NCBI GenBank assembly: GCA_029260765.1
Contig: JAJDCP010000004.1
Coordinates: 1 to 29,939 of the forward strand
Reading direction: 5' to 3'
DNA: 29,939 bases
From: Planctomycetota bacterium
Lineage (GTDB): Bacteria; Planctomycetota; J058; JAJDCP01
How positions within the stretch are numbered: position 1 is the first letter of the stretch; every line of letters starts with the position of its first letter. Made by a program: the position numbers and the translations under genes. Of the stretch, positions 7,944 to 29,932 are shown piece by piece. Below the pieces are notes generated by a model. The model was not told the DNA's origin, ran no database searches, and worked only from the letters and a program-made list of their open reading frames with translations.

Positions 7944-9594
7944 TGCGGCGCGCGAGCGCTGGGAACAAGAAGCAGCCCAAGGGCGGACGCGCGACGCCCT
8001 GTTCACCACCCTCTCGATGAAGCCGATCCCGCTGCTCGGGCAGCCGCAGAACCTGACGAGCGAGCAGCAGAAAGACTACCTCGACAAGCTGGGTTTTCCC
8101 GGGCAGTTCCCCTACACACGCGGGCTCCATCCCAACCTCTACCGCGGGCGTCTGTGGACGCACCGGCAGTTCGCAGGCTTCGGCAACGCCCGCGACACCA
8201 ACAAGCGCTACCACTTTCTACTCGAACGCGGGCAGACGGGCCTGTCGGTCGCCTTCGACATGCCGACGCTGATGGGCTACGACGCGGACCATCCTCTCGC
8301 TGAGGGAGAAGTCGGACGCTGCGGCGTCAGCATCTCCAGCCTCGCAGACATGGAGGTGCTGTTCGACGGCATCCCGCTCGGCGAAGTCAGCACCTCGATG
8401 ACCATCAACGGCCCGGCGGCTGTGATCTGGGCGATGTACATCGTGGCCGCAGAGAAGCAGGGAGTCGACAAGGCGAAGCTGCAGGGCACACTGCAGAATG
8501 ACATCCTCAAGGAATACATCGCGCAAAAAGAGTACCTGTTTCCGCCCAAGCCTTCGATGCGGCTGATGGTCGACACCATCGAATACGGCACCAACGAGAT
8601 GCCGTTTTGGAACACAGTCTCAGTCAGCGGCTACCACATCCGCGAAGCCGGCTCGACCGCCGCACAAGAGTTGGCCTTCACCCTGGCCGATGGCTTCGCC
8701 TATGTCGAGGCCTCGATCGAGCGCGGGCTGGACGTCGACGCCTTTGCGCCGCGCCTGTCCTTCTTCTTCAACAGCCACTCCGACTTCTTCGAAGAGATCG
8801 CCAAGTTCCGCGCCGCCCGCCGTATCTGGTCGCGGCGCATGCGGGATCGGTACGGCGCCAAGAATCCCCGCTCCTGGATGCTGCGCTTCCATACCCAGAC
8901 GGCGGGCTGCAGTTTGACGGCACAACAGCCCGAGAACAATATCGTGCGTACGGCGCTACAGGCCCTGGCAGCTGTCCTCGGCGGCACGCAGAGCCTGCAC
9001 ACGAACTCGATGGACGAGACGATGGCGCTGCCGACCGAGAAGGCGGTCGAGATCGCCCTGCGCACCCAGCAGCTGATCGCTGAAGAGAGCGCCGTGCCCC
9101 ACACGGTCGATCCGCTGGGAGGCTCGTGGTTCGTCGAGCAGATGACCGACTCGATGGAGGCGCAGGCCGAGGAATATTTCGCCAAGATCGATGCCCTGGG
9201 TGGGGTCGTGCCTGCCATCGAAGCCGGCTTCTTCCAGAGTGAGATCGGTGAGGCATCCTATGCCTTGCAGAAAGAGTATGAAAGCGGCAAGCGCGTCATC
9301 GTCGGCGTCAACAAGTACCGCCACGACGAGGACCTTGGCGCTCGGCAGCTCGAGACTCTGAAGATCACGCAGGAGACCGAGAACCTCGCGATCCGAGCCC
9401 ACAGAGCTGTGCTTCAGCGTCGCGACGCCGACAAAGTGCGGCGCGGCCTCGAGGCGGTGCGGCAGAGCGCTCGCTCGGACACCAACCTGATGCCGGCGCT
9501 GGTCAATGCAGTGCGCGAGTACGCGACCCTCGGGGAGATCTGTGAAGCCCTGCGGGAGGAGTTCGGGACCTACACTGAACCGGCAGCGTTCTGA
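7930..9594 (+). CDS. Acyl-CoA mutase large (substrate-binding) subunit, methylmalonyl-CoA mutase family N-terminal TIM-barrel domain only, non-MCM active-site variant
   Basis: ATG at 7930 after GGGAGA; it overlaps the kinase gene by 14 nt. A 554-aa product with MCM-family hallmarks: [85 protein letters not shown] and [23 protein letters not shown]. It has no C-terminal B12-binding Rossmann domain. Aligned by eye to recalled MCM, the substrate Tyr (RGPY) is His and the Arg of EFMVRNTY is Gln. Confidence 0.8.
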
Positions 9595-9598
9595 TCCG

Positions 9599-12109
9599 AT
9601 GCCTGATGACTCCGAACAGGCCGGGCCCCCATCGCCCCGTGCGGACGGGCGAGGGGGTGACGGGCGCGCTCCGAGCGAGAAACCCTCCCGGCGCACGAGT
9701 AGCTCGGGCGACCCGCATCGGCCCCGCAGACGGACCGGCAAACACCGTTCGGGGGGCCGCTCGGGCACGCACCGCAGCAAAGGCCGTGAGGCAGACCACA
9801 AGAAGAGCGGTCGCGCGAAAGCTGACCACAAAGGCAGCCGCAAGACGGGGCGGGAGACCAGCAGACAAAGCAGCTCCTCAGGTGAGCACCGGCGCGCTTC
9901 CGACGAGCAGGGAATCGCCGACGTGGTGCCCGACCGGCCTCGGCACGCGGGCTTTGACACGCCAGAAAACGAACGCCGTTCCGCGAAGCGCAGCCAACGA
10001 AGCTCACTGGGCCCCCACACTCCGGTACGGGCCCGACCGCGCTCTCGGGGAACCTGGCTGGTGCTGTTCGTTTTGCTGGCGCTCGGCGGCGGCTATTTCG
10101 GCTTGAGCAGGGTACTGGCGTGGCCGCGCGAACGCTTCCACAACCCCGTGCCCGGCTCGCTGCACATGCGGCCCATGGCCGGGCCAGCGGTGTTTGCGCC
10201 CGGGCCGGTGGCGAGCTTCGAGCTCGCATTCCCTGGACCACACTACGAGATCTTTGTGGCGGGAAACGCCCTGGCCGAGCTGCCGGAATACGCTGTGCTC
10301 AACGGGCAACCGATCTTCGCCTGGTCTGAGCCGCGCCCGCACCAATTGCGGCTCAGCTTTGGGCTCGAGGGGAGAGTGCCGATCAGCGACGAGGGCCTCG
10401 AGCCCTTTGCTCGCCAAGAGCTACGGGCGACCGAGCTGTGGCCGGCAGCCTATGGCGGGGCGCGGCTGCTGGTGGTGCGCGAGTGGATGCTGCAACGCCG
10501 GTTGTTTGGCCCTCCCGCCCTACCGATCATCGATGTCTTCCGAGCGAGCGGCCACGTCTCGCTACCATTGACCTGGTTTGCCCGTCCGGAGGAGGCGCTG
10601 CGGCGCGCTCCGGACAACCGGGAGCCCTTCAACCTGGAGGGACAGCCCGTGGTCTTACTGGCGAGCAGCGAGGCGGCTCTGCGGGTCGTCCCGGACTCCC
10701 GCCCGCTGGTGTTGGCGACCTGGGTCTGGCCCGACAGCCAGCAACCTCCTGGGCTTGCCTGGAACCCCGACGGCAGCGTCCGCGTCGAGACCTCTGCCAA
10801 CGACCTCGCCCTCGAAGATTGTGGCCTGCCCTGGTTGCAGATCGGCGTGCGCTCACAACGGGCCGCTGAAGCGGAGCGCAGTCAGCAGCTGAGCGCGTTG
10901 TGGGACGGCCTCCAGGCTGGCGCCGCTCAGGACCTCGGTCGCCTGCTCAACACCCGCGATCCAGAGCTGATCCGGCAGGTGGTCGAGCGTTTGCCGGCCA
11001 CCTTGGCCGGCGCTGGCCTGCCGGCCTGGCAACTCGAGCGGCTGTTGCTTGCCGGCCCCCGCGCGCTCCCCACGATCGTCGGACAGCTCCTACGTGGGGG
11101 GCTGCCCGGTCTGCCCTTCGCCCGGGTCAGCGACAGCGACCACGGTGTCGACGCGTTCCGATCGTGGCTGCCCGCGGACTACCCGGCTCGGTTGCGCGAG
11201 TGGCTGCTGCTGTACGACCCGGACCTCAAGTATGTCTGGCAAGAGCTCCGCGCGCACCCCGAGGCGCATCCCGCGCTCTGGCTCGACCTCGGCCGCGAGC
11301 TCGCGCGCCTGCACGGACGGAGCCAGGTGTTGCCCCTGCTGGCTCGACTGCTCGAGGACACGCGCCCAGCGGGCGGCCAAAGCACGATCCACCTCGGCAG
11401 CCAGGTGCTCGACTATGCGCCGCGGTTTTGCGACAAGGCCGTAGTCCTGCTGACTGAGCTGGCTGGCTGGCCCCTGGAGCTGCGACCGCTGCAAGAGTTG
11501 AGCGGACAGAGCCTTGACTGGAGCCGGCCGGAGTACTGGGACCTGCAACGCGAGCGAGCCCTGGCGCACTGGCAGCTTTCTCAGTTCCAGCCTGCCGGCT
11601 GGATCTCGCTGCAGGCGAGCAGTCTTGCTCCCCAGAGCAGCTGGGGCGCCGAGCTGCAGCTCAACGGAGAATGGCGCCGCGCGCGGGGCCAATGGGATGC
11701 CGCGCGCCGGCAGCTGGTGCTCGGGCCGCTGCCCGTGGGACCTCAGCAGCTGCGGGCTTTCCACGCGTCGGAGCTGGGCGAACGCGTCCTGGGGCCGACG
11801 CTCACGGTGGACGTTGCCGCGGAGAGCACGGTGGTGTGCCCTGTGACCCTGCCCAGCTTGCCCGGTCCGGGTAAGGGCTGGTTGCGGCTGCACCCCGGCG
11901 TATCCTCCGATTCGACCTGGCAGGTCGAGCTCCGCGACGAGACGCAACTGTTCAGCTGGTGGTTGCCGCAGACCGAGCTGCTGCTGGGACCGCTGACCGC
12001 CACCTCCTACCAACTTCGTGCCGGGCCGCTGCTGCAATCGCCCGGGGAGCCGCAGAACATCCAGCTGATCGCGGGGGAGACGCTGCAGGTGCAGTTTCCG
12101 TCGGAATGA
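9599..12109 (+). CDS. Hypothetical membrane protein with a ~160-aa highly basic disordered N-terminal region and a large extracytoplasmic domain
   Basis: ATG at 9599, 4 nt after the mutase stop. The ORF is open from 9506. The N-terminal region is Arg/Ser/Lys/His-rich (RRTSSSGDPHRPRRRTGKHRSGGRSGTHRSKGREADHKKSGRAKADHKGSRK), followed by a single TM helix WLVLFVLLALGGGYFGL and ~650 aa rich in Leu/Ala/Trp/Pro. Third-position GC bias supports this strand over the 499-aa antisense ORF 11090..12589. Confidence 0.5.
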   Translation: MPDDSEQAGPPSPRADGRGGDGRAPSEKPSRRTSSSGDPHRPRRRTGKHRSGGRSGTHRSKGREADHKKSGRAKADHKGSRKTGRETSRQSSSSGEHRRASDEQGIADVVPDRPRHAGFDTPENERRSAKRSQRSSLGPHTPVRARPRSRGTWLVLFVLLALGGGYFGLSRVLAWPRERFHNPVPGSLHMRPMAGPAVFAPGPVASFELAFPGPHYEIFVAGNALAELPEYAVLNGQPIFAWSEPRPHQLRLSFGLEGRVPISDEGLEPFARQELRATELWPAAYGGARLLVVREWMLQRRLFGPPALPIIDVFRASGHVSLPLTWFARPEEALRRAPDNREPFNLEGQPVVLLASSEAALRVVPDSRPLVLATWVWPDSQQPPGLAWNPDGSVRVETSANDLALEDCGLPWLQIGVRSQRAAEAERSQQLSALWDGLQAGAAQDLGRLLNTRDPELIRQVVERLPATLAGAGLPAWQLERLLLAGPRALPTIVGQLLRGGLPGLPFARVSDSDHGVDAFRSWLPADYPARLREWLLLYDPDLKYVWQELRAHPEAHPALWLDLGRELARLHGRSQVLPLLARLLEDTRPAGGQSTIHLGSQVLDYAPRFCDKAVVLLTELAGWPLELRPLQELSGQSLDWSRPEYWDLQRERALAHWQLSQFQPAGWISLQASSLAPQSSWGAELQLNGEWRRARGQWDAARRQLVLGPLPVGPQQLRAFHASELGERVLGPTLTVDVAAESTVVCPVTLPSLPGPGKGWLRLHPGVSSDSTWQVELRDETQLFSWWLPQTELLLGPLTATSYQLRAGPLLQSPGEPQNIQLIAGETLQVQFPSE

Positions 12110-13169: not shown

Positions 13170-14366
13170 GTGGGCGTGGACAGCCAGGCGATCTTGCCCT
13201 TCGCCCAGGGTCCATCCCCTCAGCTCCTGGCCCTGTGTCTGCTGCTCCAATTGCTGGACGCTGAGGGCCGGCCACGGCCGGAGCTGGCCGCTGCCCTGGG
13301 GGATGCGGCTGGCGAGTTTTCAGCGCTCCTGAACGGCGATGGACGGAGCGACTTGATCCTGTTGGCGCGCCGCCGCGGCAGCCCGGTCGTCTATTTCCAG
13401 AACGCGAGGGGCGGTTTCGGCCAGGCCAGAATTGTCAGACCCGATTCCAGGCCTGCGCTGAGCGACTGTGTGGATGTAGAGGTCGCGGACCTCGACGGGG
13501 ACGGGCATGCCGAGCTGGTGCTGAAACTGGACGAGTGGCACGATGACTCTGTGAAAGTCTGGCGCGAGGATGGCGCCCGGGGTTTCCAGCTGCTGGACAG
13601 TCTGACCGTGGGGCGCGGCCGGCTGGCCCTGCGCCAGTTGCCCGAAGGTCCCCGCCTTCTTATCGACCCGTATCTGGAGACGGAGGACCGGAGCCTCCTC
13701 GCTTCGGGCTTCCCCTTCGATGAGGCGCCGCTTTGCTGCGCCTCGAGGCGGGGCGGCTCAGCAGCGAGAGTCTTTCAGCGCTGAACAGCGGCCGGAAAGC
13801 TCAGGCCGAGGTGTTGCGCCTGATGGGCAAAGAGCGCCTGGCTTTCAACAGCAAGCAGGGCTGTCTGCTCCACATCTTTAGAGGGAACCCTGTTGAGGAG
13901 CCCATTGGCTGGGAGGCTCTTCTTACCCCGCACGATGCTGCGAGCGCCGGGGCCGGGGCTCACCGACGCAGGCGGACGCCTCTACCGCCAACCCCGCAGT
14001 GAGGATCTGCAGGCGCTGCTTCTGGCTGAGCACCTGGTCGACCTTGATGAAGCGGCTGCACCCACCCGAATGCGGCTCTACATGCGCTTCCTGGCCGAAC
14101 AGTCCGAGGATCCTGGCGCGCCTTTCGTCGCGCTGCGCTTTCTGGAGCTATGCCAGGGAGACGCACAGACCCCCGCACAGGCACAGGCCCTGGAGGCGTT
14201 GCGGCTGGTGGGTTCCGGCGTGGATGCGGTCCAGTTGGAGCAACAGGAAGACATCGCCGCCGAGCAGCGCAGCCTTGCCGCGCAGCAAGAAGCTTGGGCC
14301 GCAGGCAGAGGTCTGCGCGCGCCCGAGGATCCAGCTGCACTCCTGGAGCCGCAGCAAGGGCCCTGA
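13170..14366 (+). pseudogene. Fragmented FG-GAP/VCBS-repeat protein gene (N-terminus missing; apparent frame changes near 13740-13900)
   Basis: ORF 13170..13784 (GTG start, no ATG; open in frame back to 12984 inside the AT-rich island) encodes FG-GAP-like Ca-binding repeats (NGDGRSDLILLARRRG; DLDGDGHAELVL) with no signal peptide. Protein-like translation continues in frame +2 (ORF 13733..14002), then returns to the original frame (ORF 13893..14366). This pattern suggests a disrupted gene or indels. Confidence 0.35.
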
Positions 14367-14576: not shown

Positions 14577-15656
14577 ATGCCAGATCCCAAACCCAGGTCA
14601 GAGGTCATCGAGACGACCCGCGAAGGCGTGCGCAACGGCACCCGCATCCACTCGGGCCGCAACACCACCATCATCGTGCGCCGCGACGGCTTCGTGCGTT
14701 GTCGCTGGTCGACCCTGCAGGGACGGGTCGGAGACCAGGTCGAGCTGATCGCCGAGCTCGCTCCTGGCGCGACCATCAGCACGGCGACCTTCCGCATCTT
14801 CGAGCGCGACAAGGCGACCGAGGACGACGTGGTGACCGTACTGCCAGGACAGGTGCAGGGACAGAACATGCGTGCCACCTGGCGGGTCCAGAACATCGCG
14901 GAGGAGGCGGCGGAGCGCGCCGAGGGCAACAGCGACGGCCGGCGCTGGGAGTTGCCGGAGTTCTACTTCAGGGTCGAAGCCGGTGAAAAACGCGCCGATT
15001 CGGGCCGCGCAGACAACCGGCTGCTCAAGATCGTCGACCGGGTCGACCGGCCGGTGACCGGCTTCGACGGCAAGCCGCTGCCCGGGGCATCCTACGAGAT
15101 GGAGCTGGCCGATGGCAGCACGCGGCGCGGCACCCTCGACGAGCGGAGCCGCGTGCGGGAGGAGGAGGTACCCGCCGGCCGGTTCAAGCTGCGGGTCGAG
15201 CTGCCCAATCCCCTGCGCACCAGGCGACCGGCCAACCTGCTCGACAAGCTGAAACCCCTGCGCCCGATGCGTTGGGGGAGGCCCGACGCGGCCATCCGGC
15301 GGGCGGCTCTCGGCAAGCAACCCCTGAGGTTGCGGGGGCTGGGCTTCGACAGGCCCTTTGCGCTCAGCGGCGCGACGGTGCGGCTCTGGGCACAGCTGGA
15401 CGGGGGCGGATCGGAGGGGCTCAGCTTCCTCATCAAGAAGAAGGGCTCCGAGGCTACCGTCGCGACAGTGCCCGCCAGCCTGCGCGACTCGAAGCTGAGT
15501 GGCCAGTGGGTGGTCAGTGGGGCTTCGGGTGAGACGGCGTCGGGCCATCCTTGTGCGGACTTCGTTGTCCAGCTCGAGGTCGCCGGGCAACGTCTCGTTC
15601 CCGACAAAGCTTGCCGGGCCATGAGGGCCTACACCATCGAAAACAGGGAGTCCTAG
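14577..15656 (+). CDS. Hypothetical protein, upstream partner of the giant hemopexin-repeat protein
   Basis: ATG at 14577 (MPDPKPRSEVIETTREG...) follows GGAGGAG; the ORF opens at 14523. A ~360-aa product with mixed beta-rich-looking composition (TATFRIFERDKATEDDVVTVLPGQVQGQNMRATWRVQ; GRFKLRVELPNP). I recognise no family. Its stop (15654-15656) lies 2 nt before the next gene's ATG. An AT-rich tract (caacaaaaaaaagatccactttctctgata, 14486-14515) lies upstream. Confidence 0.55.
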   Translation: MPDPKPRSEVIETTREGVRNGTRIHSGRNTTIIVRRDGFVRCRWSTLQGRVGDQVELIAELAPGATISTATFRIFERDKATEDDVVTVLPGQVQGQNMRATWRVQNIAEEAAERAEGNSDGRRWELPEFYFRVEAGEKRADSGRADNRLLKIVDRVDRPVTGFDGKPLPGASYEMELADGSTRRGTLDERSRVREEEVPAGRFKLRVELPNPLRTRRPANLLDKLKPLRPMRWGRPDAAIRRAALGKQPLRLRGLGFDRPFALSGATVRLWAQLDGGGSEGLSFLIKKKGSEATVATVPASLRDSKLSGQWVVSGASGETASGHPCADFVVQLEVAGQRLVPDKACRAMRAYTIENRES

Positions 15657-15658
15657 TC

Positions 15659-22767: not shown

Positions 22768-25565
22768 GCCGGTAGCTTCCGGATGCGCACCACCGTATCG
22801 TTGAAGGACTGTTGCCCGGTAAGGTAATCCGGCGCGATGGGCAGGATGGAGTTCTGCGCCCAGCCGTTGCCGGTATTGCGTTTCCACTTGCGACGATCTC
22901 CGCCCGAGTCGTCCTGCCACCACATGTTGCGTTCCCAGTCCTGATCGCGCAACGCAGCGGGTTCCATCCCCTGGCTCTGGCTTCCCAGCGGCGCGTCCTT
23001 GCGTGCCTGGGCGACGCGGGTGTATTCGCTGTGGCCGAGGCTGTTCGAGATCGCGATCGCACGCGGATGCACTCCCCGCGTGACGACCACCGGGATCTGC
23101 AGCTTGCGTTCGAGCTCTCCGCTGCCGAGTCCCAACCCGGAGAGCCTGGCGTCCACGAATTGCGAGCGGGAGCCGGTGATCTCGACCCAATCGCCGTTCT
23201 CGATGCCGAGGCGCGCCGCGGTGTCGGGGTGCAGCCAGGCCGGGTTGCTGTGCACGATCTCCGAGCACCACTTGAGGTTGGCGGTGCGGCCATGGTTGTG
23301 GACGTTCCATTTGAAGCTGGTCATCACCAGCTGGTCATCCTCGAGCTCGAGGTGCTCCTGGATGGGAACGTACTGCGGCCAGGGGCTGACCTCATAGCTG
23401 TACGGACGATGGCTCTCGGGGCGGTTCTTGCCCTTCGAATTCGCACGCGCGATCAGCTCAGAAACATCCTCGTTGCGGGCGACCTTGGCGACGAACTCCG
23501 AACGCACCTCGAGTTTGCGGCTCGGGGTCTTGAATCCCCGCACCGGCTTGCCCTGGAACATGATCCCTACGCCCAGGCCATCCTTGCTGATGATGGCTGT
23601 CTCCGGGTCCACCACGGCACCCTGCATCACATCGTCGGAGAGCTCCCTCAGGAACGGCCGATGGTAGCTCTGCAGCTCGGGATCCTCGAAGGCGCCGACC
23701 TTCTCCATGAAGTCCCAGGCATCCTTGTAGCGCTCCGCGTCGAAGGGAATCGTCTCGACAGCCTGGCGCATCGCGTCTTCGGTGCTACGCTCCGCAGGGA
23801 ACCACTGCTCCATACCCTGGCCCACCCGGCGCGCGAGCTCGGGGAAGATGTCACGCACATCGCGCGACTCTCCGAGCGGAGCCATCATCGGTCGACGCAT
23901 GCCGATGTAGGGCTTGAGGTTGTAGGCCCCGCGTGCGTCGACGTCCCAGCGTTCCAGGTAGGTCGTCCAGGGCAGGACGATGTCGGCGAAGCTGGCGGTC
24001 TCGTTGAAGAACGGGTTGATGCAGACATGGAAGCCGATCTTCTGTTCGTCGAGCAGCACGTTGCGCGTGACGTCGATCTCCGGCCAGGTCAGCGGGGAAT
24101 CGAGATTGTAGGTCATGTAGACGCGGATCCGGGCGCGCTCCTGCTTCAAGTACCAGTAGACGATCTCTCCCACCTTCATCGTGTTCCAACGATTGGCCAG
24201 CACGAACTCCGGAGGATCGGCGAGCAAGGACGGCGTGGTCGGCTTCGGCGCGCTCTTCGGCAAGGTCACGTAGCGGGCGTCGTAGCCGCCGGTGTACATC
24301 CAACACCAGCCGCCGGGATGCCCGACGCTTCCCACCAGGACGTTGAGCAGGCCGATGGCCCGATCATTCCAGTAGCCGTTGTGATGGGCGCTCGAGCCGC
24401 GGTTGCACATTGTTGTGGCTCGTGGCGCAGCCGCGGCGAATTCGCGCGCGATCCGTGCGATGTCGGCAGCGGGCACGGTGCTCTGCTGTTCGGCCCACGC
24501 GGGTGTGTAGGAAGCCAGCTGGGCTGCCAACTCAGCGATACTGCAGTTGGCCCAGGCAGTAAAGAATTCGGCGTCGTAGAGTTTCTCTTCCACCAATACG
24601 TGTGCCATCGCCAGCGCGATGGCGCCATCGGTGCCCGGCGCGGGCATGAAGAACTCGTCGGAGTTGCCCGCCGTGTTCGACATGCGCACATCGAAGGTCA
24701 CCAGCTTGGCTCCGTTCTCGAAGCGCCCGCGCTGGACCCGCTGCGCGCCCGCCACATGGCCTTGATGCGCCTCGAACATGTTCGACCCGAAGTTCAGGAT
24801 GTACTTGCTGTGTTCGTAGTCGCCCAGGTCCCAATCGGACTCGAACAGGTAGGTGAGGTTCGCCGCCCGGCGGGCCGCAGAGCAGAGACCTCGATGGTTC
24901 AAGTGCGTGTTGGTGCCGAAGGCGCGCAGAAACGCGGCCACGGCATCTTTGCTACGGCTGCGACCCTGATGGAAGGCGAACTCCTCGTGCGCGCCGTCCT
25001 CGCGCACGGCCCGCAGCCGTGCGGCGATCTCGTCCAGAGCTTCATCCCAGGAGATACGCCTCCACGTGCCCTCACCCCGCGCCCCGACCCGCCGGATGGG
25101 ATAGAGCAGGCGCTCCGGATGGTACAGATGGTTGAGCCCCGCCTGCCCGCGAGCGCAGAGGCGCCCGCGCGAATTGGGATCGGCCGGATTGCCCTCGATC
25201 TTGATCACCCGGCCGTCTTTGACGATGCCGGTGATGCCGCAGACCGTGGAGCACAGCTGGCACATGCCGTGGATGCGCTCGACGTTCTTGTATTTGTCCG
25301 GGTCTGGAAAGCGTGTCTTCTTGAAGGGGCCTGGCAGAAGGCAGACTCCTGGCATCTTCAGCTCGGTCAGCTCATAGGGCGTGCCCGCGCGCCTTCGCCA
25401 GGTGCTCAGGTTCTGCTCGCGGGTCGGCTTGACGAAGGGCTTCGAGCCAGAGGGCTCGCCTGTATCGGTCGTGGCGCAGCCGCCCAGGCCTCCGGCGAGC
25501 AGGGCCGCGCCCAGGCGCAAGAGGCCTCTGCGTGTCAGCCCAGAGGATTCAGGGGAGGCCGTCAC
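22764..25565 (-). CDS. Molybdopterin (bis-MGD) oxidoreductase catalytic subunit, DMSO-reductase superfamily (Psr/Phs/Ttr/Arr-like), Tat-exported
   Basis: GTG start at 25565 overlaps the stop of the FeS-subunit gene (GTGA), with GGAGGAG 5 nt upstream. Twin-arginine signal MTASPESSGLTRRGLLRLGAALLAGGLGGC, with a possible lipobox LGGC. An N-terminal [4Fe-4S] motif C-x2-C-x3-C-x26-C (CQLCSTVCGITGIV...RGRLCARG). The 933-aa length is typical of MopB catalytic subunits. There is no in-frame TGA, so it is not a selenocysteine formate-dehydrogenase type. Confidence 0.8.
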   Translation of the reverse strand: MTASPESSGLTRRGLLRLGAALLAGGLGGCATTDTGEPSGSKPFVKPTREQNLSTWRRRAGTPYELTELKMPGVCLLPGPFKKTRFPDPDKYKNVERIHGMCQLCSTVCGITGIVKDGRVIKIEGNPADPNSRGRLCARGQAGLNHLYHPERLLYPIRRVGARGEGTWRRISWDEALDEIAARLRAVREDGAHEEFAFHQGRSRSKDAVAAFLRAFGTNTHLNHRGLCSAARRAANLTYLFESDWDLGDYEHSKYILNFGSNMFEAHQGHVAGAQRVQRGRFENGAKLVTFDVRMSNTAGNSDEFFMPAPGTDGAIALAMAHVLVEEKLYDAEFFTAWANCSIAELAAQLASYTPAWAEQQSTVPAADIARIAREFAAAAPRATTMCNRGSSAHHNGYWNDRAIGLLNVLVGSVGHPGGWCWMYTGGYDARYVTLPKSAPKPTTPSLLADPPEFVLANRWNTMKVGEIVYWYLKQERARIRVYMTYNLDSPLTWPEIDVTRNVLLDEQKIGFHVCINPFFNETASFADIVLPWTTYLERWDVDARGAYNLKPYIGMRRPMMAPLGESRDVRDIFPELARRVGQGMEQWFPAERSTEDAMRQAVETIPFDAERYKDAWDFMEKVGAFEDPELQSYHRPFLRELSDDVMQGAVVDPETAIISKDGLGVGIMFQGKPVRGFKTPSRKLEVRSEFVAKVARNEDVSELIARANSKGKNRPESHRPYSYEVSPWPQYVPIQEHLELEDDQLVMTSFKWNVHNHGRTANLKWCSEIVHSNPAWLHPDTAARLGIENGDWVEITGSRSQFVDARLSGLGLGSGELERKLQIPVVVTRGVHPRAIAISNSLGHSEYTRVAQARKDAPLGSQSQGMEPAALRDQDWERNMWWQDDSGGDRRKWKRNTGNGWAQNSILPIAPDYLTGQQSFNDTVVRIRKLPA

Positions 25566-26416
25566 TCCTGCTCCTCCGGCTCTTGCCAGTTGAACACATC
25601 GTAGGCCTCCGGGCCGTAGCTCTGCCCCTCACGGGGAACCTTGGGCTCCACCACGGAGAGGGGCCGCGCGCTGTCGGTCACAAAACGCACGCGAGGCTTG
25701 GCGCGTTTCTCAGGCCGAAGGACCTCCAGCCGGGCCTCCGACTCGAGCCGTTGCGCCATCTGTGAGATGTGCGCGTCGGGGTCGTTCAAGTCGCCGAAGA
25801 TCAGCGCCTCGGCGGGGCAGGTCGCCACGCAGGCAGGCTCCATGCCGGCATCGACGCGATGCGTGCAGTTGTGGCACTTGACTGCCTGGTTGGCGACCGG
25901 ATCGATGTAGATCGCTCCGTACGGGCAGGCCTCTTTGCAGGCGGCGTGCCCGGAGCACGCGTCGTAGTCGACCTGCACACTGCCGCCGCTGCCTTTGTGC
26001 AGCGCCCCGCACGGGCAGGCCTTGATGCAGGGTGCATCCTCACAATGCAGGCAGGACATCGGCAGCATGATGCGCGCGACCTGCCCTCCTGGGCGCTCGA
26101 AGTCATGGTAGATCGTCTGGCGGATGAACTGCCCCAGCGGGACGTCGTTCTCCGCCTTGCAGGCCACCTCGCATGCGTGGCAGCCAAAGCAACGGCGGAC
26201 GTCGACCAGCCAACCGTAGCGTTTGCCATCATCGGACGCCTGCATCCTGTCACGCCAGTGGGCTTCGGGCAGCGCCGGAGCCTGAGCGACTTCCTGCGCG
26301 GCTGCAGGGACCCCCGAGACTGCGAGCCCCGCCGCCAGGGCTGCCTGCTTGAGGACATCGCGGCGGGTTGAAGAGTCTGGTTCCGGATGGTTGTTGGGGT
26401 CGGTCAGATCCGTCAA
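25562..26416 (-). CDS. Four-cluster [4Fe-4S] ferredoxin-type electron-transfer subunit (PsrB/TtrB/DmsB-like) with its own Tat signal
   Basis: TTG start at 26416 with GGAG 6 nt upstream; no alternative start lies before the Tat motif. Twin-arginine motif STRRDVLKQAALAAGLAVSGVPAAAQ. Four Cys clusters: CFGCHACEVAC, CLHCEDAPCIKACP, CSGHAACKEACP and CHNCTHRVDAGMEPACVATCP. There is no C-terminal TM anchor. Confidence 0.75.
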   Translation of the reverse strand: MTDLTDPNNHPEPDSSTRRDVLKQAALAAGLAVSGVPAAAQEVAQAPALPEAHWRDRMQASDDGKRYGWLVDVRRCFGCHACEVACKAENDVPLGQFIRQTIYHDFERPGGQVARIMLPMSCLHCEDAPCIKACPCGALHKGSGGSVQVDYDACSGHAACKEACPYGAIYIDPVANQAVKCHNCTHRVDAGMEPACVATCPAEALIFGDLNDPDAHISQMAQRLESEARLEVLRPEKRAKPRVRFVTDSARPLSVVEPKVPREGQSYGPEAYDVFNWQEPEEQE

Positions 26417-26508: not shown

Positions 26509-26615
26509 GAATGTCACGGGGCGCGCTGGCCAAGAAACGAGGAATCGATGTTTGACCTCCACGGCCGCAGAGGTTTCGATGGAGAGACATTCACCCCATG
26601 CAAGGAGCAGATGCG

Positions 26616-27884
26616 ATGGCTGCCTTTTCGAGTCTCTTCGAGCCGCGTAATGTCGCGGTGATCGGCGTCTCTGAGAACCCACGTTCCACGGGCTTCGTGG
26701 TGCTCAAGAACATCCTGCACGGCGGGCTCTACGCCGAATACCCCGATGGTTTCCTCGGCGAGGTCTACGCCGTCGGCGCGGCTCAGAGCCCGATCCTCGG
26801 CGCACACCCCCTGGCGGATATCGCTGCCCTGCCCGACCAGGTCGACCTGGCGGTCTTGTGCGACGATGCTGCCAAGGTACCCGAGCAGCTCGAACAGCTG
26901 GCCGCCCGCGAGGTCCCCGTCGCCGTTGTGCTGGCCGCCGCCGACGCCGACGCTGCGCAGCGCATCGGGCAGACTGCGGCCGAGCATGGCATCCGCGTGC
27001 TCGGGCCTGGCACCCATGGCGTGATCGCGAACACCCGTCAGCTGAACGCCAGCCTCTGTCCGATGCGGCCCTACGCCGGACGTATCGCGCTGCTCGCCTC
27101 GCATGGCTCGGTGATGAACAGCTTCCTGCAACACAGCCATGACGAGAACGTCGGCTTCTCGTTCTACCTGTCCTGCGGCCAGACCGCGGACATCAACGAC
27201 ATCGAGCTGCTCAAGGCACTCGCCGACCACCCGATGGCCAACTGCGTCGCCTGGTCGTTTGGGCAGGCCGGCGAGACGCCCGCCGTCGTCGAGGCGGCCC
27301 AGGCGGTGCTGGCCAAGAAGCCGCTGGTCTACCTGCGCGCGGGGCGTGCCGAGGGTGCAGAGCTTGACAGCGCTCTGCAGGGTCTGGGCGCGTTTGCGAC
27401 CCAGAACCTGGCAGAGTTCGTCGACGCCGCGCGGGCTTTGTCGACGATGCCGAGCGCCGCGAGCAACAAGATCCACTTCGTGACCAATGGCGGCCCGTTG
27501 GATCTGGCCTGCGACACCGCGCGAGAGATGGGACTCGAAGTCTGCGGCTCGACCGACCTCGGAGCGATGGCCACGCGTGAAGAGTTCCGCGCTGCCCTGG
27601 CTCGGGCCGACGAAGACCCGCAAGCAGCGGGTGTCTGCGTCATCCTCTCGTTCCAGCCGGGTTCGCCTCCGCTGCCGATCGCCGAAGTCATCGCCGACTG
27701 GGCTGAGGGGTGCCTGAAGCCGGTCACGGCTTCCTGTGTGGGTCTCGCCGGCCAGCCCTGCGAGGACCACCTCGACATCCGCGGCGTGCCCGAGTACGAG
27801 TTCCCGCACCGTGCCCTGTTTGGCATGAAGGCGTTGGTGCATCGCGGCAGCTATGCGCCCGCGGCTGTCTCCTCCGAAGAGTAG
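26616..27884 (+). CDS. CoA-binding domain protein (NDP-forming acyl-CoA synthetase alpha-like: CoA-binding plus succinyl-CoA-synthetase-like domain, no ATP-grasp)
   Basis: ATG at 26616 is 8 nt after AAGGAG (the ORF opens at 26598). The product MAAFSSLFEPRNVAVIGVSENPRSTGFVVLKNIL... has the CoA_binding_2 signature (R-x-V-A-V-I-G-x-S), followed by a flavodoxin-like ligase-CoA domain (GIRVLGPGTHGVIA). The ~420-aa length lacks the beta/ATP-grasp half. Confidence 0.65.
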   Translation: MAAFSSLFEPRNVAVIGVSENPRSTGFVVLKNILHGGLYAEYPDGFLGEVYAVGAAQSPILGAHPLADIAALPDQVDLAVLCDDAAKVPEQLEQLAAREVPVAVVLAAADADAAQRIGQTAAEHGIRVLGPGTHGVIANTRQLNASLCPMRPYAGRIALLASHGSVMNSFLQHSHDENVGFSFYLSCGQTADINDIELLKALADHPMANCVAWSFGQAGETPAVVEAAQAVLAKKPLVYLRAGRAEGAELDSALQGLGAFATQNLAEFVDAARALSTMPSAASNKIHFVTNGGPLDLACDTAREMGLEVCGSTDLGAMATREEFRAALARADEDPQAAGVCVILSFQPGSPPLPIAEVIADWAEGCLKPVTASCVGLAGQPCEDHLDIRGVPEYEFPHRALFGMKALVHRGSYAPAAVSSEE

Positions 27885-27890
27885 CGCGGC

Positions 27891-29405
27891 TCAGCTCTCG
27901 CGACGTCCGGACGGTCGCTGCTCGGGAGCGCGCGGCCGCTTGGCCGCGGGGCTCTCTTTGCGCGGGACTGGCCGGCCGAGGCCCGGCACCGCCCTCTTGC
28001 TGGCAGGCGCCCTGGGGGCCGGTCGGGGAGCCAGGCCCTTGGCGGGCGGCTTCACCGCTGGGCGTTTGTCAGGCGTGCGGACGGCGTGCGCTTCCGCCGC
28101 TCGGGCGGGGCGCGTGGCCGGCGCGGGCTTGGCCGGCGCGGGCCTGGCCTGCTTGGGCTTGGCCTGCTTGGGCGCTACGCTGCCGCGCGCAGCGCGCAAC
28201 AAGCGCTGGACCAGACGGACGATCTCGGTGGTGGACTGGTCTCCGATCTGGATTCCCTGTGTCACCCTGAGCACCTCCGCTGGCGAAGTGATGCCCGCGA
28301 CCGCCTTGAGCCAGGCTTCCTGAAACAACGTCTTCCAGCCTGTAAGGCGCGCCAACCTGCGCAGGATCTTCGAACGCGCCTCATTGGCGATCGCGGCCCG
28401 CACGCGCTCGTCGACAGCCAGGACCTCCATCACCGCGCTGCGCCCCTGGAAGCCCGTGTTCTTGCAGAAGACGCAACCCGCGCTGCGGAACAGCTGGATC
28501 GTTTCCTTGTCGATGCCGGGCAGCTTCAAGGGTTTGCGGCATTCGCACAGCTTGCGCACGAAACGCTGAGAGACCACACACTGCAGGGCTTCGGCGACCT
28601 TGTAGCCCGGCAGCCCCATATCCTTGAAGCGGCCGATGGTGCCCAGCGCATCATTGGTGTGCAGCGTCGACAACACGCGATGGCCTGTCGACGCGGCCTG
28701 TAGAGCGATCTCGGCTGTTTCTTGATCACGGATCTCCCCGAGCATGATGATGTCGGGGTCTTGCCGCAGCAGCGCACGCAAGATCACGGGGAAAGTCAGG
28801 CCGATGTCGGGATTGACCTGGGCCTGCAAGATCCCTTCGCGGATGAACTCGACCGGGTCCTCGACGGTCACCATGTTCAGGCCGGGCCCGTTGATCGCCT
28901 CGGTTGCAACGTACAGAGACGTCGACTTTCCACTCCCCGTGGGTCCGACGTGCAGGATCAGGCCATGAGGACGCTGCAGACAGACGCGGTAGCGCGCGAG
29001 TCCCTGCTTCGAGAATCCCAGCTCATCGAGCTTGAAGCCCATCTTCCGATGGTCGATCAGACGCATCACCGCCTTCTCGCCAGCGATGCCCGCGGTGACG
29101 TTCAAGCGCACATCGAGGCCCTTGACCTTGACATCCTTGATGAAGTCGTAGGCGTGGAAGCGCCCGTCCTGCGGGAGGCGCCGCTCATTGACGTCGAGCT
29201 GGGCCATCACTTTCAGTCGGGCGAAGACCGCCGACACGTTCGCATCGGCCAACAGATCGAGCCGCTCGAGCGTCCCATCGATGCGCCCGCGCACACGCAG
29301 CGAGCGACCCGCGTGCTCGACATGGATATCGCTGGCGTTTCGTTGGAAGGCCTCGAGGAGCCATTTGTTGACCCGCTCGCCGGCATCGAAACCTGGACTA
29401 CTCAT
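27891..29405 (-). CDS. GspE/PilB-family secretion/pilus-assembly ATPase with a ~95-aa Lys/Ala/Pro-rich histone-H1-like C-terminal extension
   Basis: The ORF runs 27891..29753. The likely start is the ATG at 29405 (MSSPGFDAGERVNKWLLEAFQRNASDIHVE...), which would put the MITE-like element outside the coding region. Walker A VGPTGSGKSTSLY, Asp box, His box (STLHTND) and a tetracysteine motif CECRKP...CVFCKN. The tail runs APKQAKPKQARPAPAKPAPATRPARAAEAH...KRPAVKPPAKGLAPRPAPRAPASKRAVPG...KRPRAPEQRPSGRRES. It is convergent with the CoA-binding gene with a 6-bp gap. Confidence 0.8.
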   Translation of the reverse strand: MSSPGFDAGERVNKWLLEAFQRNASDIHVEHAGRSLRVRGRIDGTLERLDLLADANVSAVFARLKVMAQLDVNERRLPQDGRFHAYDFIKDVKVKGLDVRLNVTAGIAGEKAVMRLIDHRKMGFKLDELGFSKQGLARYRVCLQRPHGLILHVGPTGSGKSTSLYVATEAINGPGLNMVTVEDPVEFIREGILQAQVNPDIGLTFPVILRALLRQDPDIIMLGEIRDQETAEIALQAASTGHRVLSTLHTNDALGTIGRFKDMGLPGYKVAEALQCVVSQRFVRKLCECRKPLKLPGIDKETIQLFRSAGCVFCKNTGFQGRSAVMEVLAVDERVRAAIANEARSKILRRLARLTGWKTLFQEAWLKAVAGITSPAEVLRVTQGIQIGDQSTTEIVRLVQRLLRAARGSVAPKQAKPKQARPAPAKPAPATRPARAAEAHAVRTPDKRPAVKPPAKGLAPRPAPRAPASKRAVPGLGRPVPRKESPAAKRPRAPEQRPSGRRES

Positions 29406-29694
29406 CGTGTGTGTACCTTTCCGCAGGTGCGTTGAGCGCATCGTAGCAAGTACGCGCGGAAAACACCGTTCCCTCTTCCCGAGCTTGCCCCTTGGCACGC
29501 CGGAGGCACCGCCAGGGACACACACGGAACCCGCGCAAGAGCTGGTGGCTGCTGGTCGGGCTCGGGCTTGCCGGGGCACTGGCGTCGGGGCCCGCCGCGC
29601 TGCGGACATTGGCACCTTTCCAGCGAGGCTCCTGGTCGGATCCTTCAGGCCTGGTCCATGCCTTCGAACTGCTGAGAACCGCCTGTAGCGGCGG

Positions 29695-29932
29695 TCTATG
29701 AGAGGCTGTCTCAGGGAACGAGATTTCGCCACACAGTCGCTTTGGCTTGTCATGTAGGGGCGGGGTTCACCCCCGCCCGCGGGAGGAGCGAAGCGTCAGA
29801 GTCTTCGAGGTGTAAACCCCTCCCCTACAAAGAGAAAAGTCGGTTTTCCTCCCCGAGTCGCAGGGGCATGAGATTGTCTTCAGCAATCAATCGCACTCCT
29901 CCAAACGTCCCGTGAGACAGCCTCTATGAGAG
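29695..29932. mobile_element. MITE-like small element: 13-16-bp terminal inverted repeats flanked by a 10-bp direct repeat, with a GC-rich internal hairpin
   Basis: Left end tctatgagag|gctgtctcaggg (29695-29716); right end cccgtgagacagcc|tctatgagag (29911-29932). AGAGGCTGTCTCA (29701-29713) is the exact reverse complement of TGAGACAGCCTCT (29913-29925). TCTATGAGAG occurs directly at 29695-29704 and 29923-29932. The interior (~210 bp) has no ORF. An 8-bp-stem hairpin GGGCGGGG-ttcac-CCCCGCCC lies at 29758-29778. The element sits just upstream of the ATPase gene and reaches the window edge. Confidence 0.35.

What the first reader, a model, noticed from the sequence alone, without database searches (positions are those of the whole stretch)
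27891..28180. GspE/PilB-type ATPase fused to a histone-H1-like KAP-rich C-terminal tail
After the canonical C-terminal zinc-binding CxxC...CxxC domain, the ORF continues for ~95 residues of Lys/Ala/Pro/Arg repeats (AKPKQARPAPAKPAPA...). These are reminiscent of H1/HMGA-like DNA-binding tails, such as the myxobacterial CarD C-terminal domain. Secretion ATPases of this family normally end shortly after the tetracysteine motif. The gene is also solitary: no other T2SS/T4P component lies within 10 kb upstream on the window. A DNA- or polyanion-binding extension on a motor ATPase is unusual. It could localise the ATPase or reflect a non-canonical role, for example DNA uptake or regulatory sequestration.
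Basis: partly seen in the sequence, partly recalled or inferred. Interest (0 to 1): 0.55.

Follow-up and report, generated by a model that had tools for sequence, protein, structure and literature searches.

The report
Secretion-motor ATPase with basic disordered tail
The window encodes a pilus/secretion-type motor ATPase that lacks the usual N-terminal docking domain and instead ends in a 96-residue positively charged, floppy Arg/Pro/Ala/Lys tail. This swap defines a small, rare clade of about 43 uncultured-bacterium proteins, and what the tail binds is still unknown.

Summary
The tail is real and sits exactly at the stated coordinates. It is residues 409-504 of a 504-aa GspE/PilB-type ATPase on the MINUS strand (27891-29405).

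An open frame here means little on its own: chance is about 0.5 in this GC-rich DNA. The evidence is comparative.
- All 43 homologues that lack the N-terminal N1D/MshEN domain carry a basic Pro/Arg/Ala-rich tail of 35-145 aa.
- Nearly all domain-bearing relatives end 1-5 aa after the core.
- The short+tail proteins form one split in a core tree (bootstrap 197/200).
- Tails are conserved within subclades, and one persists in a 56% GC genome.
- AlphaFold predicts no structure for the tail (pLDDT about 40), preceded by a cationic amphipathic helix.

The histone-H1/CarD analogy is weak. The tail has Lys 10%, Arg 16%, Pro 23% and Ala 23%, with no AT-hook; the recurring units are Arg-Pro (RPA, PRP).

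The "solitary" claim rests on a strand error. The gene's true upstream runs off the contig after 534 bp. The closest homologue lies inside a T2SS/T4P-like cluster, but eight other clade loci are orphans.

Best reading: a clade-specific polycationic tethering arm that replaces the N1D docking domain. Its target (membrane, nucleic acid or partner protein) is unresolved. This is a new variant of a known kind, of moderate interest.

The parts
27891..29405 (-). Complete CDS (504 aa plus stop) of a short GspE/PilB-type ATPase, start ATG 29405 (MSSPGFDAGERVNKW…)
   Evidence: ORF list and sequence. The start agrees with homologues P0002-P0004. The protein is identical to database protein P0001 in two assemblies, the NCBI contig and Logan SRR15505515. 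The in-frame upstream extension 29406-29753 has flat GC by codon position and no Pfam domain.
28266..29372 (-). N2D + CTD motor core (residues 12-380), Pfam T2SSE positions 12-370 of 370
   Evidence: Pfam E 1.1e-109. Best PDB relatives are PilB 6OLJ/5TSG and EpsE 4KSS/1P9R at E about 1e-85 to 1e-87. AF2 pLDDT is about 90.
28923..28946 (-). Walker A GPTGSGKS (residues 154-161). The Asp box VEDPVE (181), Walker B DPDIIMLGEIRD (216) and His box TGHRVLSTLHTN (240) are also intact.
   Evidence: Motif positions. These columns are invariant across 31 clade members.
28464..28547 (-). Four-cysteine metal-binding (CM) element C287-E-C289 … C311-V-F-C314 (CxC-x21-CxxC)
   Evidence: Sequence. All four Cys are invariant in the clade alignment. 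The motif is defined as CXXC-X21-40-CXXC in assembly ATPases (PMC5061722).
28185..28232 (-). Predicted cationic amphipathic helix TTEIVRLVQRLLRAAR (residues 392-407) between core and tail
   Evidence: AF2 helix 392-407, pLDDT about 77-87. Hydrophobic moment 0.78, net +3, with an Arg face opposite an I/V/L face. Shared with P0002 (EIAKTVQRLLRSARG) but not with other subclades.
27894..28181 (-). Polycationic intrinsically disordered tail, residues 409-504 (A 22.9, P 22.9, R 15.6, K 10.4%; seven Arg-Pro units)
   Evidence: Composition. AF2 gives pLDDT 38-49 and no secondary structure. GC3 is 0.83-0.90, as in the core. The clade-wide presence of equivalent tails is shown.
28115..28173 (-). 15-bp (5-codon) tandem repeat, about 3.3 copies, encoding KQAKP-KQARP-APAKP-APATR at the start of the tail
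   Evidence: Tandem Repeats Finder: period 15, 85% matches, score 72.

Best explanation
What it is (shown). The gene encodes an apparently active GspE/PilB-type hexameric motor ATPase. It belongs to a small monophyletic clade that has lost the N-terminal N1D/MshEN domain and gained a translated, intrinsically disordered, polycationic Arg/Pro/Ala/Lys C-terminal tail. The N1D/MshEN domain is the part that docks canonical assembly ATPases to GspL/PilM or binds c-di-GMP. The tail evolves fast in sequence, partly by in-frame repeat slippage, but keeps its length class, positive charge, near-absence of Asp/Glu and hydrophobic residues, and Arg-Pro units.

How it most likely works (inferred). The six tails of a hexamer, about +20 each, act as flexible electrostatic tethering arms that substitute for the lost N1D. 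They would hold the motor at a polyanionic surface. I favour the anionic inner face of the cytoplasmic membrane or the platform complex. In the window protein this would be assisted by the cationic amphipathic helix 392-407.

The descriptive part I hold at about 0.9. The idea that the tail is a localisation/tethering module replacing N1D I hold at about 0.6. The membrane as the specific target I hold at about 0.35-0.4, which is the confidence given below.
For: Trait distribution:
- Among the 120 best homologues, all 32 without an N-terminal domain have tails of 33-143 aa with net charge +5 to +22.
- All with PF05157/MshEN end 1-5 aa after the core.
- Eleven further members found with a clade profile also carry tails.
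- The clade is one split in an NJ tree of 373 core columns, with bootstrap 197/200. A profile search of 1.84 billion representatives shows a bit-score gap of 593 to 504.

The tail is under selection, not read-through noise:
- Within-subclade tail identity is 52-89%, with alignment z of 5-19 against composition-matched shuffles.
- The RP dipeptide occurs 180 times against 79.7±7.4 expected; RPA and PRP are enriched; 24 of 42 tails end in Arg.
- A 74-aa tail is kept in a 56% GC genome, where P(open) is about 0.06.
- Only 3 of about 113 other coding-like ORFs in ten loci have a comparable C-terminus, against 9 of 10 ATPases.

Structure and activity:
- Disorder and the helix come from AF2; helix amphipathicity.
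- Catalytic motifs and the four Cys are intact.

Family knowledge:
- N1D distinguishes extension from retraction ATPases and is thought to contact the stator (PMC11656802).
- N1E binds GspL, and N1E-less mitochondrial GspE co-occurs with absence of GspL (PMC8134430).
- EpsE hydrolysis is stimulated by EpsL and acidic phospholipids (Camberg et al. 2007, cited in PMC5061722).
Against: - No experiment or computation here identifies the tail's ligand.
- The composition (Pro/Ala/Arg/Lys, almost no aromatic or hydrophobic residues) resembles nucleic-acid-binding tails at least as much as known membrane-binding polybasic regions.
- The amphipathic helix is present only in the P0001/P0002 pair. P0003/P0004 have a mixed-charge helix, and most members have none.
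- The IDR-only alignment of P0001 with P0002 is not better than shuffles (95 against 83±10; 56 of 500 shuffles reach it).
- Random translation of DNA with this base composition would by itself give a Pro/Arg/Ala/Gly-rich, net-positive peptide. Composition alone is therefore weak evidence for function.
Confidence: 0.38

Rival explanations
1. Nucleic-acid or other soluble-polyanion binding. The polycationic Pro/Ala/Arg/Lys tails bind DNA, RNA or polyphosphate. This would localise or sequester the motor, or couple it to DNA/RNA handling.
For: - Net charge is about +20 per chain, with D+E at only 3.8% of pooled tails.
- Pro/Ala/basic low-complexity tails are the typical make-up of H1, HupB, AlgP and protamine-like DNA binders (own knowledge).
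- A precedent for RNA-chaperone recruitment exists: cyanobacterial Hfq binds the C-terminus of PilB1 (bioRxiv 10.1101/2021.10.08.463751).
- Most clade genes are orphans, away from pilus genes.
Against: - The tail is Arg/Pro-dominated, not Lys-dominated. There is no AT-hook (RGRP 1 against 1.3 expected), no S/TPKK motif and no Pfam DNA-binding family.
- No GspE/PilB ATPase is known to bind DNA directly (own knowledge).
- The closest homologue sits inside a pseudopilin/GspF/secretin cluster.
Confidence: 0.22
2. Partner-docking arm. The repeated Arg-Pro/PRP units and the C-terminal …RPxxR end are short linear motifs in polyproline-II conformation. They would be bound by a specific protein, such as a regulator (FHA/PATAN-type), a second ATPase or a platform component.
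For: - RP, RPA and PRP are enriched far beyond composition, and the order is asymmetric (RA is depleted, 31 against 64).
- Subclade-specific conserved C-terminal blocks exist, e.g. RPQGRPKPR and SSD..PG[VI]RPA..RPGAPRPPRPPG.R.
- P0006 is translationally coupled to FHA proteins on both sides, one carrying a PatA_N domain. An FHA/PatA_N protein also lies near P0028, and an FHA protein plus a Ser/Thr kinase lie upstream of P0002.
- Canonical Planctomycetota PilBs carry acidic N-terminal disordered regions of complementary charge.
Against: - No neighbour is conserved across the clade. The FHA-PATAN protein is found only in 2 contexts.
- The motifs are degenerate and their positions are not conserved between subclades.
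Confidence: 0.2
3. Regulatory tail acting in cis. The basic tail folds back on the hexamer or competes for the nucleotide/platform face, acting as an autoinhibitor or assembly brake that is released by a signal such as phosphorylation.
For: - Ser/Thr kinases and FHA proteins recur near clade genes.
- The loss of the regulatory MshEN domain would leave the motor without its usual control input (PMC11656802).
Against: - The core itself is net positive in P0001 (+12) and P0002 (+14), which disfavours electrostatic fold-back.
- AF2 shows no confident contact of the tail with the core.
- Kinases are abundant in these genomes, so proximity may be chance.
Confidence: 0.1
4. Functionless by-product. 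After the ancestral stop codon was lost, translation runs into GC-rich DNA, where stops are rare. The Pro/Arg/Ala/Gly-rich basic peptide is simply what such DNA encodes.
For: - P(open frame over 96 codons) is about 0.5, and 4 of 6 frames are open.
- The pooled composition (P 18.6, R 16.3, A 15.0, G 10.7) is close to that expected from the tail's own base composition.
- The IDR of P0001 against P0002 is not alignable beyond chance.
- Repeat slippage is evident.
Against: - The tail is present in all 43 members across core identities down to about 45%, and never in the full-length N1D-bearing relatives sampled (60 of the 61 in the tree).
- Lys at 7-10% is far above what GC-rich random translation gives.
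- Within-subclade conservation is strong (z up to 19).
- RP is enriched with z of about 13.
- The tail is retained in a 56% GC genome.
- Neighbouring genes rarely have such ends.
Confidence: 0.1

Closest known systems
Type IVa pilus assembly ATPase PilB (Geobacter metallireducens 5TSG/6OLJ, Myxococcus xanthus 3JC8, Thermus PilF 5IT5)
   Same: N2D+CTD motor core aligned end to end (E about 1e-87). Walker A/B, Asp and His boxes and a four-cysteine metal element are shared.
   Different: PilB has an N-terminal N1D/MshEN domain and ends within 8 aa or fewer of the core. The window protein has no N1D and carries a 122-aa extension. It scores 399 bits against a cutoff of 676 for TIGR02538.
Type II secretion ATPase GspE/EpsE (Vibrio cholerae 1P9R, 4KSS, 4PHT)
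   Same: Best NCBIfam match (TIGR02533, E 4.7e-123), and the same core and CM element. The closest homologue, P0002, lies in a cluster with pseudopilins, GspF and a secretin.
   Different: There is no N1E domain, which is the GspL-binding part. The score is 411 bits against a cutoff of 630. The first Cys pair is CxC. The protein has a basic disordered tail. No T2SS gene occurs in the 29.9-kb window.
PilT/PilU retraction ATPases
   Same: Two-domain architecture without N1D (PMC11656802).
   Different: PilT lacks the tetracysteine CM domain (PMC5061722), whereas the window protein has it. The TIGR01420 score is 157 against a cutoff of 319, and PDB PilT hits reach only about 1e-30.
Cyanobacterial PilB1, whose C-terminus recruits Hfq
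   Same: A precedent for a lineage-specific C-terminal segment of an extension ATPase serving as a docking site for a cofactor.
   Different: PilB1 keeps its N-terminal domains. No sequence relation of the tails was tested, and the ligand here is unknown.
Histone H1 C-terminal domain / AlgP / mycobacterial HupB tails, and the HMGA-like domain of CarD
   Same: A low-complexity, basic, Pro/Ala-rich disordered segment. The first ~20 residues (AKPKQAKPKQARPAPAKPAPA) look KPA-like.
   Different: Lys is only 10% and Arg 16%. There is no AT-hook, no S/TPKK motif and no Pfam match. Across the clade the tails are Arg/Pro-rich, with K at 7%. The typical H1 composition of about 40% Lys is from my own knowledge.
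Mitochondrial T2SS GspE of some protists
   Same: Another GspE lineage lacking the N1E domain, correlated with absence of GspL (PMC8134430).
   Different: It is eukaryotic and split into separate N2E and CTE proteins. No basic tail is reported.

Membership tests
GspE/PilB (assembly-type) secretion ATPases | Full-length T2SSE (PF00437) N2D+CTD core | tested here: met
   Pfam E 1.1e-109, profile positions 12-370 of 370. PDB PilB/EpsE hits at E about 1e-85 to 1e-87.
GspE/PilB (assembly-type) secretion ATPases | [quoted passage not shown] | tested here: met
   GPTGSGKS at 154, VEDPVE at 181, DPDIIMLGEIRD at 216, TGHRVLSTLHTN at 240. Invariant in the clade alignment.
GspE/PilB (assembly-type) secretion ATPases | Tetracysteine CM domain CXXC-X21-40-CXXC (PMC5061722) | tested here: met
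   Four invariant Cys (287, 289, 311, 314) with a 21-residue loop. The first pair is CxC in P0001, P0002, P0005, P0006 and a few others, and CxxC in the rest of the clade. Zinc binding itself was not tested.
GspE/PilB (assembly-type) secretion ATPases | N-terminal N1D / GSPII / MshEN domain (PF05157) | tested here: not met
   No PF05157 hit in the 504/516-aa protein or in the maximal 620-aa ORF. The start is conserved with homologues.
GspE/PilB (assembly-type) secretion ATPases | Reaches NCBIfam equivalog cutoffs for GspE or PilB | tested here: not met
   TIGR02533 scores 411 against 630. TIGR02538 scores 399 against 676.
GspE/PilB (assembly-type) secretion ATPases | Encoded with platform protein (GspF/PilC), pilins and secretin | tested here: inconclusive
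   None found in the 29.9-kb window (no prepilin motif in six frames). The gene's upstream is cut by the contig end 534 bp away, and no longer contig was found. The closest homologue, P0002, does have them adjacent. Eight other clade loci do not.
PilT/PilU retraction ATPases | No CM tetracysteine domain; reaches the TIGR01420 cutoff | tested here: not met
   The CM cysteines are present. TIGR01420 scores 157 against 319.
ComGA competence ATPase | Reaches the NF041000 cutoff | tested here: not met
   216.5 against 300 bits, covering only residues 27-296.
Histone H1-like / AlgP / HupB Lys-Ala-Pro DNA-binding tails | Lys-dominated composition with KPAA/PAKKA or S/TPKK repeats | tested here: not met
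   K 10.4% and R 15.6% in the window tail; K 7.2% and R 16.3% pooled over 43 tails. Only a short 15-bp repeat gives KQAKP/APAKP units. No Pfam match.
HMGA/AT-hook domain (as in CarD) | AT-hook core R-G-R-P flanked by basic residues | tested here: not met
   RGRP is absent from P0001. In 42 tails it occurs once against 1.3 expected. GRP occurs 12 times against 7.8±2.8.
Histone H1-like / HMGA tails | Actual DNA binding | not testable with these tools
   Needs EMSA or anisotropy with the purified tail.

The most novel reading that the evidence does not exclude
The clade is a distinct class of type-IV-filament-superfamily motor. It keeps the assembly-type catalytic core and zinc element but has swapped the N1D docking/c-di-GMP domain for a polycationic disordered arm. 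In most genomes it is encoded as an orphan, working outside a dedicated pilus or secretion operon. It might act as a membrane- or nucleic-acid-tethered hexameric motor or signalling ATPase, or as a second motor that plugs into machines encoded elsewhere.
Probability: 0.15. Interest if true: 0.65.

Novelty: new variant of a known kind. Interest (0 to 1): 0.4.

Why it matters
How GspE/PilB motors are recruited and regulated through their N1D domain is still poorly understood. A natural lineage has deleted N1D, kept the assembly-type core and acquired a charged disordered arm. It offers a test of what N1D is needed for, and of whether simple electrostatic tethering can replace a folded docking domain.

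The case is also a caution. In GC-rich genomes a long 'KAP/RAP-rich' C-terminal ORF extension is expected by chance, and can be trusted only with comparative evidence.

The clade is rare: about 43 clusters at 90% identity among 5.8 billion, and three representatives at 50% identity. It comes from uncultured, probably Planctomycetota-related bacteria, so any functional impact is so far limited.

Tried and rejected
1. Extending the gene's upstream failed. The window is the whole NCBI contig. The only other assembly with the identical protein (Logan SRR15505515) stops 269 bp upstream. The JGI metagenome scan returned only relatives at 45% identity or less. The GTDB genome scan returned almost only canonical PilB, with one clade member, L007.

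2. Organism identity remains uncertain. Cluster look-up gave no names. The methylmalonyl-CoA mutase search gave one 87% relative and then mixed phyla at 70% identity or less, the best named hit being Planctomycetota at 68%.

3. The search for a conserved neighbour found none. FHA/PATAN, sigma-54 activator, FAA hydrolase and methyltransferase genes each recur in only 2-3 loci.

4. The hidden-domain search of the tails found nothing.

5. The AT-hook/HMGA reading was rejected.

6. The idea that basic Pro/Arg tails are a general habit of these genomes was rejected: 3 of about 113 other ORFs have one. Other basic segments do occur, in the MVP-like protein and in orf9506.

7. The idea that other C-extended GspE/PilB proteins have the same tail was rejected. 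They carry receiver, CBS or zinc-ribbon domains, or acidic disordered regions.

8. Codon-position GC is not discriminating in the tail, because GC is high at all three positions.

9. The first bootstrap run timed out and was redone with a numpy neighbour-joining implementation.

10. Literature searches found no description of this clade in the held library. That is absence in this library, not proof of novelty.
Full report
**1. What is at the coordinates**

The finding lies at the 3' end of a gene on the minus strand. The maximal ORF is 27891-29753. Homologues start at the position of ATG 29405 (MSSPGFDAGERVNKW…). The in-frame stretch upstream of it has flat GC at all three codon positions and no Pfam domain.

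The 504-aa product is identical to a database protein (P0001). That protein is seen on a 29,939-bp NCBI contig, so the window is the whole contig. It is also seen on an independently assembled 4.4-kb Logan contig, so the reading frame of the tail does not depend on one assembly.

Pfam T2SSE matches from profile position 12 to 370 of 370 (E 1e-109). The best NCBIfam models are GspE and PilB, both far below their equivalog cutoffs because the N-terminal third of those models is unmatched.

Walker A, the Asp box, Walker B and the His box are intact. Four cysteines are present as C287-x-C289-x21-C311-x-x-C314. This is a small departure from the canonical CXXC-X21-40-CXXC motif that marks assembly but not retraction ATPases (PMC5061722).

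The conserved core ends at …AEVLRVT (residue 382). Solved PilB, EpsE and PilF chains stop within 8 residues of that point. Here 122 more residues follow:
- a linker;
- a predicted helix, 392-407;
- 96 residues (409-504; 27894-28181) of A 22.9, P 22.9, R 15.6 and K 10.4%.

**2. Is it more than chance?**

The open frame alone is not. With the tail's base composition, the probability of 96 stop-free codons is about 0.5, and four of the six frames are open across the region. Codon-position GC does not discriminate, because all three positions are GC-rich. The case therefore rests on comparison with relatives.

- Among the 120 best homologues, all 32 proteins that start at the N2D have a tail of 33-143 residues with net charge +5 to +22. 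Every protein with the N-terminal PF05157/MshEN domain ends 1-5 residues after the core.
- A profile search added 11 more short proteins, all tailed.
- A neighbour-joining tree on 373 core columns used 42 short and 61 canonical sequences. It puts the short+tail proteins on one side of a single split, with bootstrap 197/200.
- In a search of 1.84 billion 50%-identity representatives, only three represent the clade, separated by a bit-score gap of 593 to 504 from everything else with a single motor core.
- Within subclades the tails align far better than composition-matched shuffles (z 5-19). Tail identity is 52-89% where cores are 80-97% identical, which is the pattern of a fast-evolving but constrained disordered region.
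- Arg-Pro dipeptides occur 180 times against 79.7±7.4 expected. RPA and PRP are the enriched tripeptides, and 24 of 42 tails end in Arg.
- One member from a 56% GC contig keeps a 74-residue tail, where the chance of an open frame is about 0.06.
- In ten loci, only 3 of about 113 other coding-like ORFs have a comparable C-terminus.

The tail is therefore a translated, selected feature of the clade. One caveat applies: for the pair P0001/P0002, the IDR alone is not alignable beyond chance.

**3. Anatomy and structure**

AlphaFold2 with the clade alignment gives a confident core (pLDDT about 90). It predicts a helix at 392-407 (pLDDT about 77-87) and no structure for 408-504 (pLDDT 38-49).

The helix TTEIVRLVQRLLRAAR is cleanly amphipathic. 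Its hydrophobic moment is 0.78 and its net charge +3, with Arg on one face and I/V/L on the other. It is shared with P0002 only. P0003/P0004 have a longer mixed-charge helix, and most members have none.

The first ~20 residues of the tail, the 'KAP-like' part, are encoded by a 15-bp tandem repeat (28115-28173). This points to in-frame slippage as a source of length variation. No Pfam family matches any tail.

**4.

The H1/HMGA/CarD analogy does not hold up. Lys is 10% in this tail and 7% across the clade, and Arg and Pro dominate. The AT-hook core RGRP is absent here and not enriched in the clade.

The 'solitary' argument used the wrong side of the gene. What lies at lower coordinates is downstream:
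- a convergent CoA-ligase-like gene ending 6 bp from the ATPase stop;
- then a molybdopterin oxidoreductase operon.

The real upstream is 534 bp of apparently non-coding DNA, followed by the end of the contig. I could not extend it. No T2SS/T4P protein or prepilin motif occurs anywhere in the window.

Among relatives the picture is mixed.
- The closest homologue (P0002, 68% identity overall, 78% in the core) sits between pseudopilin genes, in a cluster with a second, MshEN-bearing ATPase, GspF and a secretin.
- Its paralogue in the same genome (P0003) follows rnpA-yidD.
- P0006 is flanked by FHA proteins, with overlapping stop and start codons.
- P0028 follows a sigma-54 activator.
- P0013, P0030, P0009 and P0276 are among unrelated genes.
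- No neighbour is conserved across the clade.

**5. Mechanism**

Shown:
- loss of N1D and gain of the tail coincide perfectly and have a single origin in the sampled tree;
- the tail is disordered, polycationic and under selection for composition and Arg-Pro units;
- the motor motifs are intact.

Established family knowledge:
- N1D is what distinguishes extension from retraction ATPases and is thought to contact the stator (PMC11656802).
- N1E binds GspL (PMC8134430).
- EpsE activity is stimulated by EpsL together with acidic phospholipids (Camberg et al. 2007, cited in PMC5061722).

Inferred: the tail is a replacement localisation/tethering module. Six arms of about +20 each would hold the hexamer on a polyanionic surface. 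I favour the inner-membrane surface or platform (about 0.38), helped in this protein by the amphipathic helix.

Rivals:
- Nucleic acid or polyP binding (0.22). The composition fits such tails well.
- A specific partner that reads the RP/PRP motifs (0.20). FHA/PATAN neighbours and the acidic N-terminal IDRs of canonical Planctomycetota PilBs are leads.
- Cis-regulation (0.10).
- A functionless GC-driven extension (0.10). This is disfavoured by the evidence in section 2.

None of these is resolved by computation here.

**6. Comparison with known families and novelty**

The protein works like, and is homologous to, GspE/PilB assembly ATPases, but it fails one defining feature, the N1D domain, and misses both equivalog cutoffs. 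It is not a PilT, because it has the CM cysteines and a low TIGR01420 score, and it is not a ComGA.

Other GspE/PilB proteins with C-terminal extensions carry receiver, CBS or zinc-ribbon domains, or acidic IDRs, not polycationic tails. The nearest precedent for a functional C-terminal segment is cyanobacterial PilB1, whose C-terminus recruits Hfq.

I found no description of this clade in the searchable literature. I rate it a new variant of a known kind. The clade is rare, at about 43 clusters among 5.8 billion. Its members come from uncultured bacteria, and the few named ones are Planctomycetota. The window's own taxon is uncertain.

**7. Verdict**

Interest is 0.4: a neat domain-for-IDR swap in a well-studied motor family, with an open and testable question about its target, but in a rare lineage and without functional evidence.

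Noticed in passing
window 465-3290 (-): A 942-aa ORF matches the eukaryotic major vault protein domains MVP_shoulder (E 4.5e-14), Vault_3 and Vault_4, so it is a bacterial MVP homologue. It carries a basic Pro/Arg insertion, RPPRRRKNKAAP….
   Followed up: partly
window 15551-19900 (+): A 1450-aa ORF with hemopexin repeats (E 2.4e-19) lies next to an FG-GAP repeat ORF at 13170-13781. Both are probably large secreted or surface proteins.
   Followed up: no
window 9506-12106 (+): An 867-aa GC-rich ORF (coding-like GC3) has no Pfam match. Its N-terminal region is very basic, RAPSEKPSRRTSSSGDPHRPRRRTGKHRSGGRSG….
   Followed up: no
window 22231-26416 (-): An operon of a molybdopterin oxidoreductase (933 aa, twin-arginine-like N-terminus), a 4Fe-4S subunit and a NarJ-like chaperone. 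Between it and the ATPase lies an acetate-CoA-ligase-alpha-like gene on the plus strand (26598-27884), convergent with the ATPase, with only 6 bp between the two stop codons.
   Followed up: partly
P0121-P0134: Tandem double-motor proteins of about 1000 aa, with two full GspE/PilB cores in one chain, top the profile search of the representative library.
   Followed up: no
L004 11373-12884 and L004 9150-10004: The clade member P0006 is translationally coupled to an upstream FHA+PatA_N protein and to a downstream double-FHA protein. The downstream protein contains a long RPSSERRAPS-type Pro/Arg/Ser repeat region.
   Followed up: partly
L011, L027, L037, L039, L058, L067, L086 (canonical PilB genes of Phycisphaerae/Planctomycetota): Canonical N1D-bearing PilBs of these taxa carry extra ACIDIC disordered N-terminal extensions of 80-150 aa with net charge -5 to -16. 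This is opposite in charge to the basic tails of the short clade.
   Followed up: partly
L001 1-16023 (GCA_030428695.1): A T2SS/T4P-like cluster with two ATPases, one short+tailed and one MshEN-bearing. It is preceded by an FHA-FGE-sulfatase protein and a Ser/Thr kinase. The same genome also has an orphan paralogue, P0003, directly after rnpA-yidD.
   Followed up: partly
window 29760-29800 (-): A GC-rich hairpin (gcgggcggggg-tgaa-ccccgccc) lies about 360 nt upstream of the ATPase start, near where two assemblies end (29939 in the window; 269 nt upstream of the start in the Logan contig). It could be the end of an upstream transcription unit or a repeat that breaks assemblies. No canonical terminator or sigma-70 promoter was found by the scan.
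   Followed up: no
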